The notes under the pieces: model-generated
Database searches by the model: none
Seen by the model: the letters and a program-made list of their open reading frames with translations, nothing else
What the model was told of the DNA's origin: nothing
DNA from: a virus
Virus record (IMG/VR): IMGVR_UViG_3300032238_000977
Location: 1-64,000 of that record
Length of the DNA stretch: 64,000 nt
Strand: one strand, 5' to 3'
Position numbers and translations under genes: made by a program
In this document: positions 24,752 through 29,779 of the stretch, piece after piece
Position numbering within the stretch: the stretch's first letter is position 1
How the letters are laid out: each line of letters opens with the position of its first letter

Positions 24752-24941
24752 TTTCAGGCTCGCCACCAATTCTTTAACTGGAAATTGGAAACCAGGCGGG
24801 GAGAGTATCCCATCCGCACCACCAGTTTTTTAAAGAAACTGGAAACTTTTAAGAGGGTCATATGACTCCACCAGTACTTTTAAAGTCTCTCCGTGACTTC
24901 GAGGGGGTCCCGACCAGTACTTTTTAAGTCTCTCCGTGACT
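24752..24941 (-). ncRNA. Tandem-pseudoknot RNA of the cyanophage wcaG/manA motif type
   Basis: Four units each ending in UGGY(G/C); GGUGCGGAUGGG..CCCGCC and UGGCGAGCC segments; lies upstream of a nucleotide-sugar epimerase. Confidence 0.7.
24870..24941. repeat. 29-bp direct repeat, two copies
   Basis: ACCAGTACTTTTWAAGTCTCTCCGTGACT at 24870-24898 and 24913-24941, 28/29 identical. Confidence 0.95.
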
Positions 24942-25188: not shown

Positions 25189-25400
25189 ACAACCTCACTA
25201 GTTTCAAGATCACTATAAACATATTCCATGAGCATTTCATAATCATCCAGAGGATCACCAGAGAATACTACACCCTCATTTGCATAATAACGACGAACCT
25301 TTTTGTAGAGTTTCGGATTCTTTACATCAAGGTAGAATTCTCCATTTGCTGCACCACGAAGAGTGGGAATATCTTTCTTGAATTTTACTGCGAGAGTCAT
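25185..25400 (-). CDS. Hypothetical cyanophage protein
   Basis: Start MTLAVK downstream of a sigma70 promoter. Confidence 0.75.
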   Translation of the reverse strand: MTLAVKFKKDIPTLRGAANGEFYLDVKNPKLYKKVRRYYANEGVVFSGDPLDDYEMLMEYVYSDLETSEVV

Positions 25401-25422
25401 TGTTTTGAATGTTGACCTTGTT

Positions 25423-25474
25423 ATTATAGGAAAATAATGTTTGTGCGTCAAGTAGGACAATTTTAAAACTGTCC
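25423..25474 (-). promoter_or_regulatory. Sigma70 promoter with 20-bp palindrome (copy 2)
   Basis: TTGACG, 17 bp spacer, TATAAT; GGACAATT-ttaa-AACTGTCC at 25455-25474. Confidence 0.7.
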
Positions 25475-25475
25475 A

Positions 25476-25548
25476 TGCCCCTTGCGTGGATCGAACACGC
25501 CTCAGCCGAATTATGAGTTCGGTGCATTCACCAGATTGCTAAAAGGGC
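25476..25548 (-). tRNA. tRNA with CAU anticodon (Met or Ile2)
   Basis: Cloverleaf, anticodon arm CCGAA-CT-CAT-AA-TTCGG, T-loop TTCGATC, A73. Confidence 0.9.
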
Positions 25549-25577
25549 ATTCGCTATTCGCAAATAGCGAATAGCAA

Positions 25578-25665
25578 TACGAGTGGGTGGATTCGAACCA
25601 CCTCAAAGCCGCTAATCTGGCGGAAAGAGTTTATAAGACTCCTCTGACTACCAAGTCTCACTCGC
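25578..25665 (-). tRNA. Non-canonical tRNA-Ile(UAU) with long variable arm
   Basis: GCGAGTG/CACTCGT acceptor, GGAGT-CT-TAT-AA-ACTCT, GGTGG-TTCGAAT-CCACC. Confidence 0.8.
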
Positions 25666-25713
25666 ACGAAAGTTGCCTTGAGGCAACTTATAAGACCTAT
25701 ATGTGGTCTTAAA

Positions 25714-25929
25714 TCACGAACCTTCTTCGTGATCAGTGTGGATGCGTATAAGTTCCTCATCCGAATAATCCGAAGAATCTGAAGAATCCACTATGTAATC
25801 GTAATTGGTTGTTCTTACAATAACCACTTCATTATTATCATTGTATATTTGAAATGACTCTCCAGATTCGACTCTTTCCAAGAGTTCATCAAATCTTTTT
25901 TGAAATTCTTCAACTGTAAACTTTTCCAT
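25714..25929 (-). CDS. Phd/YefM antitoxin-like small protein
   Basis: MEKFTVEEFQKRFDELLERVESGESFQI pattern plus acidic tail. Confidence 0.55.
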   Translation of the reverse strand: MEKFTVEEFQKRFDELLERVESGESFQIYNDNNEVVIVRTTNYDYIVDSSDSSDYSDEELIRIHTDHEEGS

Positions 25930-26503
25930 TAGATTCGGAGACGAGTCGTTTAAATTCGATGAGATAATCATACAGCAAATCAAATTCGTAGTCAACCCCA
26001 GCATCCATCGTAATAGAAATTTTAATATTTGATGGATCCAAATACCTTTCAAGCAACCAAACTTTATAATATGATCTAAAAAATTTAGATACAATTTTAA
26101 AGTCTAATAATTTGAAAAAATCTGCCTCAAGATCATCTGAAGATTTTTTGCTTGGATGATATACATTTATTTTATAATAGTCTTCAGAAAACCACTTCAT
26201 GTGAGATCTGACTATTTTACAATGTTCTTCGAGATCAAAATCTTGATTATTATAATAATGCATTGAAAATAAATTTAATATATTTTCAACATATACTGCA
26301 TTATATTCTGCAATATCATTCGGCATTATTTTAAAGTTCCACTCCATGTCTGGAATAAATCCACATATGAAGTGGGTTATATCATGAGAAGGTTTTGTCG
26401 GAGGTGGTTTAGGGGACGAAAAAGATTCTTGATATTCTTTATGAAGAATTTTATAATAAACCTTTCCGTTTTCCCATGACCATTCTATTTTTTGTAAACT
26501 CAT
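25910..26503 (-). CDS. Hypothetical protein
   Basis: 197-aa ORF with HDITH motif. Confidence 0.7.
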   Translation of the reverse strand: MSLQKIEWSWENGKVYYKILHKEYQESFSSPKPPPTKPSHDITHFICGFIPDMEWNFKIMPNDIAEYNAVYVENILNLFSMHYYNNQDFDLEEHCKIVRSHMKWFSEDYYKINVYHPSKKSSDDLEADFFKLLDFKIVSKFFRSYYKVWLLERYLDPSNIKISITMDAGVDYEFDLLYDYLIEFKRLVSESNGKVYS

Positions 26504-26513
26504 AATTTTTCAA

Positions 26514-26585
26514 TCGGGGCGACAGGGATCGAACCTGTGACCTCTGGTTCCCAAAACCAGCATTCTACCGCTGAACTACGCCCCG
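26514..26585 (-). tRNA. tRNA-Pro(UGG)
   Basis: CGGGGCG acceptor, CTGGT-TT-TGG-GA-ACCAG. Confidence 0.95.
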
Positions 26586-26590
26586 TAAAT

Positions 26591-26851
26591 TCACTCTACA
26601 AATTCTACCACAGGACCATTACCTTTGGCAACTACATCTTCTAAAAGATATTTTTGAACTTCGTCAAATGTTTCAAAAATTTTTTTATCATTTTCAAATT
26701 CTACCCACCAACATACATCATTTTCTGTAGGTGAATTAAGTTCTTCATCATTTTTAGGAATGGCTTCAATTATCATATGAGTATTTACACCATGCTTTTT
26801 TTCAGCCTGCATAATGGTATACATTAGAGGCAAATCAGAAATATATCTCAT
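26591..26851 (-). CDS. Hypothetical protein
   Basis: 86-aa acidic ORF on the coding strand. Confidence 0.6.
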   Translation of the reverse strand: MRYISDLPLMYTIMQAEKKHGVNTHMIIEAIPKNDEELNSPTENDVCWWVEFENDKKIFETFDEVQKYLLEDVVAKGNGPVVEFVE

Positions 26852-26959
26852 TTCAATAATTTAAATTTTTTACTTATTTCTATGTATAAGAATTATACCT
26901 ATAATTTCTGGAATAATCAATACCAAACCAGATCGGGATTGCTGCTAAAACTTCTAACA

Positions 26960-27154
26960 TCAAACTCCTCTCCAGTTCTTATATTCATAATGAAAGTATT
27001 GATCTATAGTATTATCCAGAGGGGCATCAACTTCCCATTGTGCCCATTCTTTACAAAACTGTTTAATGTATCCGTCGTTTAAGACACTTCTACCATATGA
27101 TCTCACAAAACAAGTCATCGCAAAATGATATCTTTGTTTAGTTTGCGTAAGCAT
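26960..27154 (-). CDS. Hypothetical cyanophage protein
   Basis: 64-aa ORF in a run of small genes. Confidence 0.65.
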   Translation of the reverse strand: MLTQTKQRYHFAMTCFVRSYGRSVLNDGYIKQFCKEWAQWEVDAPLDNTIDQYFHYEYKNWRGV

Positions 27155-27227
27155 GGGTCAACCCCCAATATACAAAAATTCCAACAAAACTAAAAATAGA
27201 CACTGCGGCAAAAATAGTGTTAGTCAT
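27138..27227 (-). CDS. Small membrane peptide, 29 aa
   Basis: MTNTIFAAVSIFSFVGIFVYWGLTHAYAN. Confidence 0.55.
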   Translation of the reverse strand: MTNTIFAAVSIFSFVGIFVYWGLTHAYAN

Positions 27228-27230
27228 CTT

Positions 27231-27437
27231 CTAGTTCAAAGTAATTTTAAGAAATGGAAGTAGAGGTGGAATAACTCCAACTAACCTTAAAAGTCCTTCA
27301 GCAAATAAAGAAAGAACCACCCAACCGACGCACATACTAATGATAGAAGCATTGCGGTTATGTCTTCTGATAGCAGCATCAATCATCTCCTGCACTTCTG
27401 TGCGAGTTACATAATCATCATCAAACGGTTCCATCAT
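27231..27437 (-). CDS. Hypothetical membrane protein
   Basis: EVQEMIDAAIRRHNRNAS plus a TM helix; GGAGG RBS. Confidence 0.75.
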   Translation of the reverse strand: MMEPFDDDYVTRTEVQEMIDAAIRRHNRNASIISMCVGWVVLSLFAEGLLRLVGVIPPLLPFLKITLN

Positions 27438-27583
27438 TTCCCACCTCCAAGAAATTTTTCCAAAGGATCTTTTCTTGTTTTAACTATTTCACATGCTCTC
27501 ATGTAAAACATATTTTCCATATTTCCAGACTTTTCAAATGTTTTTTTTATCTTCACCCAATTGTCGTAGGTGTGCTGATCCAT
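27434..27583 (-). CDS. Hypothetical cyanophage protein
   Basis: MDQHTYDNWVKIK...FYMRACEI. Confidence 0.7.
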   Translation of the reverse strand: MDQHTYDNWVKIKKTFEKSGNMENMFYMRACEIVKTRKDPLEKFLGGGK

Positions 27584-27696
27584 TTGATTTTTAGATTGGA
27601 TACTATTATATAATAGTCTCCAATACCAAGAAGTCAACATATGTGTTCATACCATAACACTGATAAAGAAATTGTTAAATTCGTAACTAATTTAAA

Positions 27697-27782
27697 AGGA
27701 AGATCAGGGATTCGAACCCTGGAACGCTACTAACGTTAATAGTTTTCAAGACTATCGCCATCAACCACTCGGCCAATCTTCC
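27697..27782 (-). tRNA. tRNA-Ser(UGA)
   Basis: ATAGT-CT-TGA-AA-ACTAT, long variable arm; discriminator is U rather than the usual G. Confidence 0.93.
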
Positions 27783-27793
27783 AATAAAAATCC

Positions 27794-28045
27794 TTAACGG
27801 ACTTCAAAATCTAAACGTCTTACTTTACGTTGACGCCTTGCTTCTTGATAAGCAAGATCTTCATTTGTAAGAACTCCAGATTTTGTTTTGGTATCTATTG
27901 AGTTTAACATAACAACCCGAGATAAGTCAACTGCAGAGATTTTGTCTCCTCTTATCATAGTCATATTAGGACACCCACAAGTAATACTTTTTGATGGATG
28001 TCCAATCATTTCTTTATTGCAATCTTTACATCTTATTGAAATCAT
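27794..28045 (-). CDS. Zn-ribbon hypothetical protein
   Basis: CKDC...CGC. Confidence 0.75.
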   Translation of the reverse strand: MISIRCKDCNKEMIGHPSKSITCGCPNMTMIRGDKISAVDLSRVVMLNSIDTKTKSGVLTNEDLAYQEARRQRKVRRLDFEVR

Positions 28046-28060
28046 TGTCCTTTACCCTAA

Positions 28061-28495
28061 TCACTGTAAATGAGATCTTAACATCCAAACAAACTTACCA
28101 TGGGATTCCATTAAATCCTGAACCAGATTAGCAGTTGCATATTGCTTTTGATCTTCCGATTCTTCCGAAATCTCTTTCATTAATTCACAAAACTTTTCGT
28201 TATTCTCAAGAAGTTCTTGAAGAATTTCTTTTGCTCCTGTTGAACTAGCCGCTTCTTTAATTTGCGTCACTTCAAGCATTCTTGAAAGAGAACTCAATGG
28301 TTTTACGTTTAAGTATCTCATATGCTCAGAAAGACGATCAATCTCTTCAAACATAGTTTCATACTGTCCACCAAAAAGTTGATGTAGTTGAGTGAAATCT
28401 GATCCAACTACATTCCAGTGAAATGCCCAAGTTTTATGAAATAAGACAAAAAGTGATGACTGAGCATCACTCAAGAGTTTATAAAGTTTTTCCAT
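28061..28495 (-). CDS. dps: Dps ferritin-like DNA-protection protein
   Basis: FHWNVVG..F..LH, IDRLSEH, K..WMLRS; late promoter TAAATA at 28517-28512. Confidence 0.92.
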   Translation of the reverse strand: MEKLYKLLSDAQSSLFVLFHKTWAFHWNVVGSDFTQLHQLFGGQYETMFEEIDRLSEHMRYLNVKPLSSLSRMLEVTQIKEAASSTGAKEILQELLENNEKFCELMKEISEESEDQKQYATANLVQDLMESHGKFVWMLRSHLQ

Positions 28496-28523
28496 TATAC
28501 TCTTTTTTGAGTATTTATGCAAG

Positions 28524-28595
28524 TGGGCGATACTGGATTCGAACCAGTGACCATCTCCGTGTAAAGGAGGTGCGCTACCGCTGCGCTAATCGCCC
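28524..28595 (-). tRNA. tRNA-Val(UAC)
   Basis: Cloverleaf, CTCC-TT-TAC-AC-GGAG. Confidence 0.93.
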
Positions 28596-28600
28596 TTAAA

Positions 28601-28663
28601 TGGATGGTAGGTATTCCCACTCGGATGTTAAGAAGGTGATTAACCGTTAACCCCGACCATCCA
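28601..28663 (-). ncRNA. Candidate structured RNA between tRNA-Asn and tRNA-Val
   Basis: 8-bp closing stem TGGATGGT/ACCATCCA with two internal arms. Confidence 0.5.
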
Positions 28664-28664
28664 A

Positions 28665-28736
28665 CTCCCCCGGCAAGATTCGAACTTGCGACCTGGAAAT
28701 TAACAGTTTCTCGCGCTACCGCTGCGCCACAGGGGA
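28665..28736 (-). tRNA. tRNA-Asn(GUU)
   Basis: GAAA-CT-GTT-AA-TTTC, G73. Confidence 0.94.
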
Positions 28737-28740
28737 ATAA

Positions 28741-28810
28741 AGGAAGTTACTGGACTTACACCAGTTACGAGGGCATTGTCTGCTTGTCTTGATTCTTTGA
28801 CTTAACTTCC
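28741..28810 (-). ncRNA. tRNA-like RNA lacking a normal anticodon arm
   Basis: GGAAGTT/AACTTCC acceptor, ACTGG-TGTAAGT-CCAGT T-arm, GTC/GAC D-stem, only a 3-bp/5-nt middle arm. Confidence 0.65.
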
Positions 28811-28812
28811 GC

Positions 28813-28867
28813 GATGGGGCAAGTGTGATATACCTCATAAGGATATAACAGGGACTTACCCTCTATC
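28813..28867 (-). ncRNA. Candidate hairpin RNA
   Basis: GGGTAAGT/ACTTGCCC lower stem, CCCT bulge, upper stem capped by CCT-TATG-AGG. Confidence 0.45.
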
Positions 28868-28894
28868 ATTTTATATATGGAGATAAACTCCAAG

Positions 28895-28968
28895 CGTCTT
28901 GGGAGGGACTCGAACCCCCGACCAACTCATTAGAAGTGAGATGCTCTATCCAACTGAGCTACCAAGAC
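28895..28968 (-). tRNA. tRNA-Arg(UCU)
   Basis: CTCA-CT-TCT-AA-TGAG, A20 in the D-loop. Confidence 0.94.
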
Positions 28969-28972
28969 ATAA

Positions 28973-29040
28973 GTAGGTTCCTATCGCCGCCACTCCTGAA
29001 CCTACCGAAGGAGAGTGTCGCAGTTGATTTCTCAACTCTG
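28973..29040 (-). ncRNA. Hairpin plus H-type pseudoknot leader
   Basis: AGTTGA-GAAA-TCAACT; CACTCT/GGAGTG crossed by GTAGGTTC/GAACCTAC. Confidence 0.55.
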
Positions 29041-29042
29041 AT

Positions 29043-29071
29043 ATTATACCAGTCCTTATGAAACTGGTCAA
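29043..29071 (-). promoter_or_regulatory. Sigma70 promoter inside the tRNA cluster
   Basis: TTGACC, 17 bp spacer, TATAAT. Confidence 0.8.
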
Positions 29072-29074
29072 GTG

Positions 29075-29154
29075 TGCCGTGTGGTTGTGAATCTAAATCA
29101 AACCTTTTTGATAAGTGCCCCACTGGATCTTATCTAAAGTTTTGAACCACGGCA
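29075..29154 (-). ncRNA. Candidate long irregular hairpin RNA
   Basis: Nested TGCCGT/ACGGCA, GGTT/AACC, CTTT/AAAG and GATAAG/CTTATC stems. Confidence 0.5.
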
Positions 29155-29156
29155 AG

Positions 29157-29230
29157 TGGGAAATCCTGGACTCGAACCAGGCACCTCACGATTATCAGTC
29201 GTGCGCTCTAACCAACTGAGCTAATCTCCC
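29157..29230 (-). tRNA. tRNA-Ile(GAU)
   Basis: CACGA-CT-GAT-AA-TCGTG. Confidence 0.96.
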
Positions 29231-29233
29231 ACA

Positions 29234-29322
29234 CGGAGGATGTTGGATTTGAACCAACGGAGACCCGTAAAGATCTCAAGAACTTAGCAGGTTCCCGCTT
29301 TAAGCCACTCAGCCAATCCTCC
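29234..29322 (-). tRNA. tRNA-Ser(GCU)
   Basis: GGAAC-CT-GCT-AA-GTTCT, long variable arm, G73. Confidence 0.95.
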
Positions 29323-29324
29323 AA

Positions 29325-29397
29325 TGGGTCAAGTGAGACTCGAACTCACGACTTACAGGTTAAAAGCCCGCTACTCTACCAACTGAGTTATTGACCC
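29325..29397 (-). tRNA. tRNA-Lys(UUU)
   Basis: GCGGG-CT-TTT-AA-CCTGT. Confidence 0.95.
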
Positions 29398-29401
29398 AAA
29401 G

Positions 29402-29483
29402 TGGGCAGGGAGGGATTTGAACCCCCGTAGGCAGAGCCAGCGGATTTACAGTCCGCCTCCATTAACCACTCGGACACCTACCC
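29402..29483 (-). tRNA. tRNA-Tyr(GUA)
   Basis: GCGGA-CT-GTA-AA-TCCGC, type II variable arm. Confidence 0.95.
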
Positions 29484-29492
29484 ATAAAACTT

Positions 29493-29550
29493 AAAGGCAG
29501 GTGCGGTATCTCCTTTCGGTGCCCATGCTCCTTTTACTTTCCTTGCCTTC
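29493..29550 (-). ncRNA. Candidate structured leader of the tRNA operon
   Basis: AAGGCA/TGCCTT closing stem, purine-rich internal loop, GAAA-capped hairpin. Confidence 0.45.
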
Positions 29551-29559
29551 AATGAGTTT

Positions 29560-29588
29560 ATTGTATCACTCCTTAGGGCAGTCGTCAA
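29560..29588 (-). promoter_or_regulatory. Sigma70 promoter of the tRNA operon
   Basis: TTGACG, 17 bp spacer, TACAAT. Confidence 0.75.
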
Positions 29589-29779
29589 CCTGCTGTTGCT
29601 TCCTTACGAGCAGTCTTTTCAGCGGTGATTTCGTTACGACGAACTTTTACAAGTTTGGAAATTTCTTGAAGTGCTTTACGAGCACGAGTTCCTGCAGATC
29701 CATTACCTGCGACGAACTTTTCATCTTCAACTTGCCAAGCTGCAACTGCATCTGTGAGTTGTTGTACTGTTTCCGACAT
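29585..29779 (-). CDS. Histone H1-like protein (Hc1 family)
   Basis: GNGSAGTRARKALQEISKL..R motif; AAGGA RBS. Confidence 0.75.
   Translation of the reverse strand: MSETVQQLTDAVAAWQVEDEKFVAGNGSAGTRARKALQEISKLVKVRRNEITAEKTARKEATAG

What the first reader, a model, noticed from the sequence alone, without database searches (positions are those of the whole stretch)
28741..28810. Anticodon-less tRNA mimic
Seen: perfect 7-bp acceptor stem stacked directly on a perfect 5-bp T-stem with a 7-nt loop (UGUAAGU), a 2-nt linker and a 3-bp D-stem, but the anticodon arm is reduced to GCA-GACAA-UGC. A decayed pseudogene would not be expected to keep 12 of 12 Watson-Crick pairs in the top half. Inference: a substrate for RNase P, RNase Z and the CCA-adding enzyme that mimics the tRNA top half. 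It could titrate tRNA-targeting toxins or synthetases, or act like a YrlA-type RNA.
Basis: partly seen in the sequence, partly recalled or inferred. Interest (0 to 1): 0.7.

Follow-up and report, generated by a model that had tools for sequence, protein, structure and literature searches.

The report
Non-decoding tRNA look-alike in cyanophage
Inside its tRNA gene cluster this cyanobacterial virus carries a strongly conserved 70-base tRNA-shaped RNA whose codon-reading arm is replaced by a tiny hairpin with a fixed GACAA loop. It is probably a working non-decoding RNA, not a broken tRNA, but what it binds is unknown.

Summary
On the minus strand, 28810-28741 folds as described: a 7-bp acceptor stem, a 3-bp D stem, a GCA-GACAA-UGC mini-arm and a 5-bp T stem with loop UGUAAGU. 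ARAGORN and the Rfam tRNA model do not call it.

It is not a decayed tRNA. The same 70 nt recurs in about 130 places in viral and metagenome contigs, in only 19 versions. The element is 96% identical between copies; its flanks are 57-74% identical. One version has three compensatory acceptor pairs.

It is a diverged subtype ("A") of a wider cyanomyovirus family ("B"), which is unannotated in the ten isolate records that hold it, among them S-PM2, S-RIM8 and S-CREM1. Type B has canonical D and T loops and the same mini-arm. Its stems covary strongly, and its loop is always GACAA or, rarely, GAUAA. GACAA is also the phage P22 boxB pentaloop, which folds like a GNRA tetraloop.

Types A and B never co-occur. 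A tRNA usually starts 3-5 nt downstream of either type. The type-B signature is almost absent from cellular genomes.

Most likely it is cut out with the tRNAs and uses the GACAA arm to bind an unknown partner. A YrlA/Ro role is not supported. Evidence of expression is weak.

This scan reached the same reading earlier on another genome (e1-5403509).

The parts
28741..28810 (-). 70-nt tRNA-shaped RNA ('type A'); RNA position p equals window coordinate 28811 - p
   Evidence: Sequence and fold. The whole element recurs in about 130 places in 19 versions. Model R1 scores it 102 bits; the next hit in the window scores 14.8.
28804..28810 (-). Acceptor 5' strand GGAAGUU, which pairs with 28742-28748 (AACUUCC)
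   Evidence: 7 of 7 Watson-Crick pairs. In the L190/L197 version, pairs 5-7 change on both sides (G-C to A-U, U-A to C-G, U-A to G-C). Pairs 1 and 2 show G-C to G-U changes.
28786..28801 (-). D arm: GUC / AAAGAAUCAA / GAC. It lacks the G18G19 doublet and has G-A instead.
   Evidence: The stem is invariant in all type-A copies, and GUC/GAC is shared with type B. Loop positions 19 (U/A) and 21 (A/G) vary.
28773..28783 (-). Mini-arm GCA-GACAA-UGC in place of the anticodon arm; the loop GACAA lies at 28776-28780
   Evidence: Invariant in type A. In type B all three stem pairs change on both sides with 100% pairing, while the loop stays GACAA or GAUAA. GACAA is the P22 boxB pentaloop, GNRA-like with the C looped out (PMC12550061).
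28766..28772 (-). 7-nt variable region CCUCGUA
   Evidence: This is the main variable stretch of the element: CCUUUGA, CCUUCGA, CUUUUGA, CCCUUGA, CCUCUUA and others.
28749..28765 (-). T arm ACUGG-UGUAAGU-CCAGU. U54, A57 and A58 are kept; positions 55-56 read G-U instead of U-C.
   Evidence: Invariant in every type-A copy, including those found with a probe that does not touch this arm. U56 could pair with the A that follows the single D-loop G. S-SZBM1's type B shows the same double change, GG to GA together with UUC to UUU.
28741..28741 (-). Discriminator-position base (U). No CCA is encoded. A 4-nt spacer (28737-28740) separates it from tRNA-Asn as Rfam places it.
   Evidence: This base varies between copies (U, C or A).
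28664..28737 (-). tRNA-Asn(gtt), immediately downstream
   Evidence: ARAGORN and Rfam. tRNA-Asn is the downstream neighbour in 49 of 64 type-A copies.
28813..28867 (-). Conserved hairpin element directly upstream
   Evidence: 85-90% identical to stretches in S-SRM01, S-CREM1, S-SZBM1 and S-RIM8, where a tRNA follows it, directly except in S-SZBM1 (about 50 nt between). Its core pattern is found in at least 119 viral contigs.
28894..28968 (-). tRNA-Arg(tct), first gene of the likely transcription unit
29043..29071 (-). Promoter-like site TTGACC-17-TATAAT with an upstream TG
   Evidence: Consensus scan, 11 of 12 matches. This is a pattern match only, not shown to function.

Best explanation
The element is a functional, non-decoding, tRNA-shaped small RNA of T4-like cyanophages. 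It is the diverged 'type A' form of a family that keeps the tRNA L-shape (a 12-bp acceptor/T stack, a D stem and an elbow) but replaces the anticodon arm with a short stem capped by an invariant GACAA pentaloop. Inferred steps: (1) It is transcribed with tRNA-Arg, tRNA-Asn and tRNA-Val from the promoter-like site at 29071-29043. (2) The host's tRNA-processing enzymes release it: RNase P cuts at its 5' end and at the 5' end of the next tRNA, 4 nt away, and the 3' end is then trimmed and given CCA. (3) The tRNA body provides folding, stability and release, while the GNRA-like GACAA arm is the working surface that binds a still unknown protein or RNA of phage or host. It cannot read codons, and it is probably not charged by a specific synthetase, because its discriminator base varies.
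For: Purifying selection. A 19-mer and a separate 25-mer probe retrieve almost the same 64-69 viral contigs, and the 25-mer retrieves 66 metagenome contigs. That gives 130 instances in 19 versions, with the D stem, mini-arm and T arm invariant. Mean pairwise identity is 96% for the element and 57-74% for 80-nt flanks.

RNA-level constraint. The L190/L197 version has three compensatory acceptor pairs. In type B (26 distinct sequences) 96.6% of cells are paired and 11 of 19 pairs change on both sides; 0 of 500 shuffles reach the observed pairing or covariation score, and slid controls pair at only 30-46%. An extra pair across a bulged A also covaries: GC 19, CG 6, AU 1.

Invariant loop. It is GACAA, with GAUAA as the only variant, in both types. 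The variable base is the one that is looped out in the GNRA-like P22 boxB pentaloop (PMC12550061).

Elbow kept. S-SZBM1's type B changes D-loop GG to GA together with T-loop UUC to UUU. Type A has the same G-A and G-U letters at those places.

Equivalence of the types. They share GUC...GAC-A-R-GCA-GACAA-UGC. They never co-occur: 62 A-only and 45 B-only loci, and two complete type-A genomes lack type B.

tRNA-like placement. A tRNA starts 3-5 nt downstream in 41 of 63 type-A copies and 3-7 nt downstream in 20 of 43 type-B copies. A promoter-like site lies upstream.

Phage-specific. The type-B signature occurs in only 3 small or MAG contigs among 185,579 species genomes.

RNA libraries. Contigs from three studies span the element, two of them together with tRNA-Asn.
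Against: Nothing here shows a discrete processed RNA, a CCA end or any partner. The RNA-library contigs could come from DNA carry-over or from unprocessed precursor. Within type A the D, mini and T stems never vary, so their pairing rests on the fold and on homology to type B. The type-A acceptor covariation comes from a single sequence version. Homology of A and B rests on about 25 shared nucleotides, synteny and mutual exclusion; exchange of the mini-arm as a module cannot be excluded. Type A lacks U8, G18G19 and U55-C56, so recognition by RNase P and other tRNA enzymes may be weaker than for a tRNA. The GNRA-like fold of GACAA is taken from another RNA (P22 boxB), where the stem is longer.
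Confidence: 0.6

Rival explanations
1. It is a decoy for a tRNA-binding factor. The tRNA top half (acceptor, T arm and elbow) titrates a host tRNA-targeting defence nuclease or toxin, a synthetase or a modification enzyme. The stable capped mini-arm simply makes it uncleavable.
For: It lies in a phage tRNA array, and the 12-bp acceptor/T stack is intact and conserved. Type B has fully canonical D and T loops.
Against: If only the top half mattered, the mini-arm loop would be free to vary among stable caps, yet it is invariant in about 180 copies. Type A has lost the canonical elbow letters and U8 that many tRNA-binding enzymes read, while keeping the mini-arm. Anticodon nucleases need the anticodon loop, which is absent. 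The discriminator base varies, which argues against mimicry of a specific synthetase substrate.
Confidence: 0.15
2. It is only a processing or structural spacer: a tRNA-like 'punctuation mark' that guides RNase P/Z cleavage of the polycistronic tRNA transcript and has no role of its own afterwards.
For: It sits between structured spacers and tRNAs, with tRNA-like spacing.
Against: The neighbouring tRNA-Asn carries its own RNase P site only 4 nt away, and related phages join the upstream hairpin directly to a tRNA without this element. Punctuation would not demand near-invariance of 70 nt, loops included.
Confidence: 0.08
3. It is an unusual decoding or amino-acid-donor tRNA, for example a doublet or frameshift reader with a 5-nt loop, or an anticodon-independent substrate of a synthetase.
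For: ARAGORN forces some type-B copies into tRNA-Leu(caa), tRNA-His(atg) or 'tRNA-?(ca)' calls. Type B has the overall length of a tRNA. One metagenome copy has G3·U70.
Against: There is no 7-nt loop, no U33 and no position-37 purine context. The stem under the loop covaries as a 3-4 bp helix closing a 5-nt loop. The discriminator varies (U, C or A in type A; A, U or C in type B). The Rfam tRNA model does not match type A at E <= 10.
Confidence: 0.04
4. It is a decaying tRNA pseudogene, a recent deletion in an ordinary tRNA such as the tRNA-Ala that occupies this slot in related phages.
For: In S-CREM1, S-SZBM1 and S-RIM8 the upstream hairpin is followed by tRNA-Ala, and in S-SZBM1 and S-RIM8 tRNA-Asn comes next. 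In this window the element lies between the hairpin and tRNA-Asn.
Against: It is 96% conserved across copies against 57-74% for the flanks. Acceptor changes are compensatory. No homologue has an intact anticodon arm. Among 793 unique ARAGORN tRNAs from the loci its best local match is type B, not tRNA-Ala.
Confidence: 0.02
5. It is a YrlA-like RNA that works with a Ro60/Rsr protein.
For: YrlA RNAs also carry a tRNA-like domain without an anticodon arm (general knowledge).
Against: The YrlA model (RF02553) gives no match at the element at E <= 10. No TROVE domain is found in this record, in two complete type-A virus genomes or in S-PM2. The element has no long Ro-binding helix.
Confidence: 0.03

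Closest known systems
Unannotated cyanomyovirus tRNA-like RNA with a GACAA mini-arm ('type B'), present in S-PM2, S-RIM8 (isolate record KX349286), S-RIM32, S-CREM1, S-SZBM1, DSL-LC03 and many IMG/VR contigs
   Same: Acceptor/T stack, GUC...GAC D stem, A/G linker and a 3-bp stem with a GACAA loop. It lies inside the tRNA cluster with a tRNA a few nt downstream. The two types are mutually exclusive.
   Different: Type B has canonical U8, a G18G19 D loop and a UUCGAUU T loop, a C1-G72 acceptor, a bulged A with a fourth covarying pair, and a 9-nt variable region. Type A has A8, a G-A D loop, a UGUAAGU T loop, a GGAAGUU acceptor and a 7-nt variable region. Type A is absent from all 50,697 isolate phage records.
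Phage T4 stable RNAs, species 1 and 2 (rnaC, rnaD), encoded in the T4 tRNA gene cluster (own knowledge)
   Same: Small non-tRNA RNAs of unknown function encoded among the tRNA genes of a T4-like phage. They are matured by the tRNA-processing enzymes.
   Different: The T4 RNAs are longer (roughly 120-140 nt) and not cloverleaf-shaped. blastn finds no phage-record match to the element better than E = 0.1. Any relation is one of kind, not of family.
P22 boxB RNA (N-utilisation hairpin), PDB 1A4T
   Same: The pentaloop letters GACAA on a short stem are identical. In boxB the loop folds like a GNRA tetraloop with the C looped out and is read by an arginine-rich peptide (PMC12550061). Here the only loop variant changes that same C to U.
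   Different: boxB is a free 5-bp hairpin in a nut site of an mRNA leader and acts in antitermination. Here the hairpin is grafted into a tRNA body. No N-like protein or boxA was looked for or found.
Other tRNA-like non-decoding RNAs: mascRNA, the YrlA tRNA-like domain, the tmRNA tRNA-like domain, viral 3' tRNA-like structures
   Same: They keep the acceptor/T top half, which tRNA enzymes recognise, and have a reduced or replaced anticodon arm.
   Different: None of these Rfam models matches the element. No Ro gene is present. The element has no mRNA-like domain and no 3'-UTR context.
Engineered 'tRNA scaffold' for RNA expression (own knowledge: Ponchon and Dardel 2007)
   Same: A tRNA body whose anticodon arm is replaced by a foreign hairpin, so that the cell folds, processes and stabilises it.
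   Different: That is a laboratory design. This would be a natural counterpart, and that is not proven.

Membership tests
Canonical tRNA (Rfam RF00005) | 7-bp acceptor stem stacked on a 5-bp T stem with a 7-nt T loop | tested here: met
   Fold and sequence. 12 of 12 pairs are Watson-Crick.
Canonical tRNA (Rfam RF00005) | 5-bp anticodon stem with a 7-nt loop carrying U33 and an anticodon | tested here: not met
   The arm is a 3-bp stem with a 5-nt loop, GACAA. The same arm is kept in all homologues.
Canonical tRNA (Rfam RF00005) | Conserved core letters U8, G18G19 and U54-U55-C56 | tested here: not met
   Position 8 is A, the D loop is AAAGAAUCAA and the T loop is UGUAAGU. Only U54, A57 and A58 are kept.
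Canonical tRNA (Rfam RF00005) | Recognised by tRNA finders | tested here: not met
   ARAGORN makes no call. RF00005 gives no match at gathering score or at E <= 10.
Cyanophage GACAA-arm tRNA-like family (unnamed) | tRNA-like acceptor/T stack, GUC/GAC D stem and a short stem closing a GAYAA pentaloop | tested here: met
   The 5' half aligns in register with type B; GUC, GAC and the loop letters G, A, A, A (all but the third base) are invariant. A descriptor scan finds only types A and B with this architecture.
Cyanophage GACAA-arm tRNA-like family (unnamed) | Located inside a cyanomyovirus tRNA cluster, with a tRNA a few nt downstream | tested here: met
Cyanophage GACAA-arm tRNA-like family (unnamed) | Canonical D and T loops, as in type B | tested here: not met
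   Type A differs in both loops, so it is filed as a diverged subtype.
YrlA / Y RNA-like (RF02553) | Match to the YrlA covariance model | tested here: not met
   No match overlaps 28741-28810 at E <= 10. The weak YrlA hits lie on real tRNAs.
YrlA / Y RNA-like (RF02553) | Ro60/Rsr (TROVE) protein encoded with it | tested here: not met
   PF05731 is absent from this record (38% complete), from two complete and two partial type-A virus genomes and from S-PM2. A host Rsr was not examined.
T4 species 1/2 stable RNAs | Non-tRNA small RNA encoded within a T4-like phage tRNA cluster | tested here: met
   The window is a T4-like cyanomyovirus.
T4 species 1/2 stable RNAs | Sequence or structure homology to rnaC/rnaD | tested here: not met
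   blastn of the element against 50,697 phage records gives only four chance-level hits, none in a T4-like phage.
T4 species 1/2 stable RNAs | Accumulates as a stable processed RNA | not testable with these tools
   Only contigs from RNA libraries were available.
boxB (P22-type) N-binding hairpin | GACAA pentaloop closing a short helix | tested here: met
   Sequence. The loop identity and its GNRA-like fold are taken from PMC12550061.
boxB (P22-type) N-binding hairpin | Part of a nut site, with a cognate N protein | not tested
   The context is a tRNA body, not an mRNA leader. No search for arginine-rich-motif proteins was made.

The most novel reading that the evidence does not exclude
The family is a natural 'tRNA scaffold'. 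The phage borrows the host's tRNA-processing and stabilising machinery to produce a small RNA whose only working part is a boxB-like GACAA pentaloop hairpin. That hairpin captures or recruits a specific arginine-rich or other RNA-binding protein, or docks on a host RNA such as the ribosome or RNase P, to redirect host functions during infection. This would be a new class of phage regulatory RNA hidden in tRNA arrays.
Probability: 0.3. Interest if true: 0.8.

Novelty: new variant of a known kind. Interest (0 to 1): 0.6.

Why it matters
Phage tRNA arrays are usually read only as codon-usage or anti-defence supplies. This work shows that cyanophage arrays also carry a conserved, covarying, phage-specific RNA that looks like a tRNA but cannot decode. 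It is missed by Rfam 15, and ARAGORN either misses it or miscalls it (type B is called tRNA-Leu(caa), tRNA-His(atg) or 'tRNA-?'). So tRNA counts for these phages are partly wrong, and a probable regulatory RNA has gone unannotated, even in the model phage S-PM2. If the GACAA arm is a binding module, this is a natural version of the engineered tRNA scaffold. It would also give a tractable way into the old unanswered question of what the non-tRNA RNAs in T4-like tRNA clusters do.

Tried and rejected
- Rfam at E <= 10 over 25300-29700 gave nothing at the element. The mascRNA, YrlA and tymovirus tRNA-like-structure hits all lie on real tRNAs.
- blastn of the element against isolate phages gave only four chance-level hits.
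- Decayed tRNA-Ala was considered because of synteny. It was rejected on conservation and on the lack of similarity to any tRNA isotype.
- Origin of type B from tRNA-Glu or tRNA-His was considered. The D arm resembles both, but whole-length similarity is low, so the question is left open.
- A D-loop/variable-region pairing (UCGA with UUGA) was suggested by the linkage of position 21 with the variable region. The A-variant and the L190 version do not fit it, so it may be only shared ancestry.
- A loop-to-variable-region pseudoknot in type B (CAA with UUG) is not kept in the GUG/CAC subgroup.
- Five contigs matched the 19-mer inside an unrelated pair of direct repeats (L159, L164, L166, L175, L186). 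Only 14 nt lie outside the repeat, so this is a chance match and not a CRISPR array.
- Literature searches found no description of this RNA. The S-CREM1 paper lists only the Rfam families abiF, wcaG, manA and glnA.
- Parts of the stretch without cover in the RNA-library contigs carry no weight.
- A search for a protein partner among the neighbouring genes found only Dps-like ferritin, an Hc1 histone-like protein, tail lysozyme and proteins of unknown function.

Full report
**Setting.** The window belongs to a 78-kb IMG/VR virus record. It is a T4-like cyanomyovirus. A wcaG RNA lies at 24752-24850, and the best DNA matches are Synechococcus phages of the Kyanoviridae. Eleven of the window's twelve tRNA genes form a cluster on the minus strand between 25475 and 29483. 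Around the finding the order is: Tyr-Lys-Ser-Ile, a 187-nt gap, Arg (28968-28894), an 83-nt gap, the element (28810-28741), 4 nt, Asn (28736-28665 by Rfam), a 68-nt gap, Val.

**Observation.** Read on the minus strand, the 70 nt are GGAAGUU AA GUC AAAGAAUCAA GAC AA GCA GACAA UGC CCUCGUA ACUGG UGUAAGU CCAGU AACUUCC U.
- This cloverleaf is both the minimum-free-energy fold and the centroid: -16.5 kcal/mol, z = -2.6, with 4 of 200 shuffles folding as well. The opposite strand gives z = -1.0.
- ARAGORN does not call it.
- No Rfam family, including tRNA, YrlA and mascRNA, matches it, even at E <= 10.
- No ORF of 50 aa or more overlaps it.

The fold statistic alone is modest.

**Conservation.**
- An exact 19-mer from the T arm occurs in 69 IMG/VR contigs. 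About 65 of them carry the whole element.
- A second probe of 25 nt, taken from the D loop and mini-arm and not touching the T arm or acceptor, retrieves almost the same set plus one new contig, L190. Choice of probe therefore does not explain the uniformity.
- The same 25-mer finds 66 JGI metagenome contigs.
- Together these give 130 instances in 19 versions. Some of these contigs are the same assemblies held in both collections.
- The D stem, mini-arm and T arm never change. Variation is confined to D-loop positions 19 and 21, the third loop base (C or U), the variable region, G-C to G-U changes in acceptor pairs 1 and 2, and the discriminator.
- Over 39 distinct contexts the element is 96% identical on average, while 80-nt flanking blocks are 57-74% identical.
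- The neighbours differ between contigs. Upstream lies either a 39-nt spacer after tRNA-Gly or the hairpin element. Downstream lies Asn, Val or another tRNA. The element is kept as a module while its surroundings are shuffled.
- The L190/L197 version replaces acceptor pairs 5-7 by three different Watson-Crick pairs. This points to selection on RNA pairing rather than on the DNA sequence.

**A wider family.**
- A covariance model built from the element found weaker hits in other cyanophage loci. A descriptor scan then defined a second type, B: CCUCUGG UA GUCU AUUGGUAA GGAC AG GCA GACAA UGC ACUUGGAAA CUAGG UUCGAUU CCUAG A CAGAGG.
- Type B has canonical U8, G18G19 and UUCGAUU letters, and the same mini-arm as type A.
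- Across 26 distinct type-B sequences, 96.6% of cells form standard pairs and 11 of 19 pairs change on both sides. No shuffle reaches the observed pairing or covariation score, and slid controls pair at 30-46%.
- The three mini-stem pairs take the forms GCA/UGC, GCG/CGC, GUG/CAC, CCC/GGG, CCA/UGG and CCU/AGG, with 100% pairing.
- A fourth pair across an invariant bulged A also covaries: GC 19, CG 6, AU 1.
- The loop is always GACAA, except for GAUAA in a few copies of both types.
- Type B is present but unannotated in S-PM2, S-RIM8 (isolate record KX349286), S-RIM32, S-CREM1, S-SZBM1 and DSL-LC03. ARAGORN labels some copies tRNA-Leu(caa), tRNA-His(atg) or 'tRNA-?(ca)'.
- Type A has no match in 50,697 isolate phage records.

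**Relation between types A and B.**
- MAFFT aligns the 5' halves in register, with GUC, GAC and four of the five loop letters (G, A, A, A) invariant.
- Both types lie in the same part of the tRNA cluster.
- No locus holds both: 62 loci have A only and 45 have B only. Two complete type-A virus genomes (284 kb and 223 kb) have no type B.
- I read type A as a diverged replacement of type B. Acquisition of the mini-arm by recombination cannot be excluded.
- S-SZBM1's type B changes D-loop GG to GA together with T-loop UUC to UUU. This is the pattern expected for a compensatory change of the G19:C56 elbow pair.
- Type A has the same G-A and G-U letters at those places, so its odd loops are compatible with a kept L-shape. 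This is an inference.

**The mini-arm.** GACAA is the pentaloop of phage P22 boxB. In the solved N-peptide complex (PDB 1A4T) it adopts a GNRA-like fold with the cytosine looped out and contacted by the peptide (PMC12550061). In this family the only tolerated loop change is at that cytosine. An invariant loop on a covarying stem is the signature of a recognition site, not of a structural cap, since a cap could drift among stable tetraloops.

**Processing context.**
- A tRNA starts 3-5 nt downstream in 41 of 63 type-A copies, and 3-7 nt downstream in 20 of 43 type-B copies. This is the same spacing as between true tRNAs in this cluster.
- A near-consensus promoter-like site (TTGACC-17-TATAAT, with an upstream TG) lies at 29071-29043, before tRNA-Arg.
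- Release by RNase P, 3' trimming and CCA addition follow from what is known of bacterial tRNA operons. They are not shown here.
- Contigs from metatranscriptome libraries of three studies cover the element: X15 (28665-28810) and X16 (28664-28810) together with tRNA-Asn, and X17 (28734-28799) alone. DNA carry-over cannot be excluded, so this is only a weak hint.

**Distribution.** The type-B signature occurs in only three contigs among 185,579 species genomes: a 27-kb contig of an Acidimicrobiaceae MAG, a 515-nt contig of a Vulcanococcus MAG and a 413-nt contig filed under Clostridium. All three look like phage DNA. The family appears to be phage-specific. DNA runs that hold the window's cluster are freshwater and other environmental metagenomes.

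**Rivals.**
- A top-half decoy for tRNA enzymes or toxins does not explain the invariant loop, nor the loss of canonical core letters in type A.
- Pure processing punctuation does not require 70 invariant nucleotides.
- Decoding is excluded by the arm geometry. Specific aminoacylation is unlikely because the discriminator varies.
- A pseudogene is excluded by conservation and covariation.
- The YrlA/Ro idea fails the covariance-model test and the TROVE test.

**Known or new.** Rfam 15 has no such family. The papers I could search do not describe it. Non-decoding tRNA-like RNAs, and non-tRNA RNAs in T4 tRNA clusters, are known kinds, so this is a new variant of a known kind. An earlier follow-up of this scan reached the same reading on another genome (e1-5403509). 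I had stated my own reading before I saw that note.

- the identity of the loop with the P22 boxB pentaloop;
- the bulged-A fourth pair;
- the 19:56 elbow covariation;
- the mutual exclusion of types A and B on complete genomes;
- the spacing statistics;
- the near-absence from cellular genomes;
- the RNA-library contigs.

Noticed in passing
window 28813-28867 (-), within the 83-nt gap 28811-28893: A conserved long hairpin (GAGGGUAAGU...GUUAUAUCC...GGUAUAUCAC ACUUGCCC) lies upstream of the element. It is 85-90% identical in S-SRM01, S-CREM1, S-SZBM1 and S-RIM8, where a tRNA follows it (directly, except in S-SZBM1). Its core pattern is in at least 119 IMG/VR contigs. The outer stem shows compensatory changes by eye. 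It has no Rfam match. The fold gives z = -3.3.
   Followed up: partly
window 28596-28663 (-): A 68-nt element between tRNA-Asn and tRNA-Val is closed by a 7-8 bp terminal helix (z = -2.1). Relatives lack it: Asn and Val abut in L014, and an RNA-library contig joins 28596 to 28665. It therefore behaves as an insertion.
   Followed up: partly
window 29075-29155 (-): An 80-nt spacer after tRNA-Ile (GCCGUGGUUCA...CACACGGCAC) has complementary ends. It is also present in S-RIM8 (L004, about 1105-1190) and in an RNA-library contig (X16).
   Followed up: no
L014 2513-2551; L003 about 1019-1060: A 39-nt conserved spacer (UUGGUAGUCGCUAGGCAGAUAGCAUAGAAAGACGCCAAA) precedes type A in most contigs and also occurs in S-SZBM1. 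Its 5' part resembles the start of type B (UGGUAGUC...GGCAGA). It could be a remnant or a separate small hairpin.
   Followed up: no
window 25577-25666 (-): ARAGORN calls a 90-nt 'tRNA-Ile(tat)' with the anticodon at position 32. Rfam scores it only as a weak tRNA-Sec match (35 bits, below the cut-off). L190 has a similar 90-nt call. It is an unusually long tRNA or something else.
   Followed up: no
L004 1046-1119, L187 2503-2575 and other type-B loci: ARAGORN labels type-B RNAs as tRNA-Leu(caa), tRNA-His(atg), tRNA-Val(aac) or tRNA-?(ca). Published tRNA counts and codon arguments for some cyanophages may include these non-decoding RNAs.
   Followed up: partly
window 28061-28522 (-) and 29585-29779 (-): The tRNA block containing the element is flanked by a Dps/ferritin-like protein (Pfam Ferritin, E = 4e-22) and a 64-aa Hc1 histone H1-like protein (E = 2e-14). 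S-SRM01 also has a 'histone H1' gene next to its tRNA-Arg.
   Followed up: no
L238 824-893: One metagenome copy of type A has G at position 3, which gives a G3·U70 pair, the alanine identity element. It is a single sequence and could be an error.
   Followed up: no
L159, L164, L166, L175, L186: Five viral contigs share a pair of roughly 27-nt direct repeats (GUAACCGAYUUGAAAUAGUAGUCGGCU) 74 nt apart. They matched the 19-mer probe by chance. There are only two copies, so this is not an array.
   Followed up: partly
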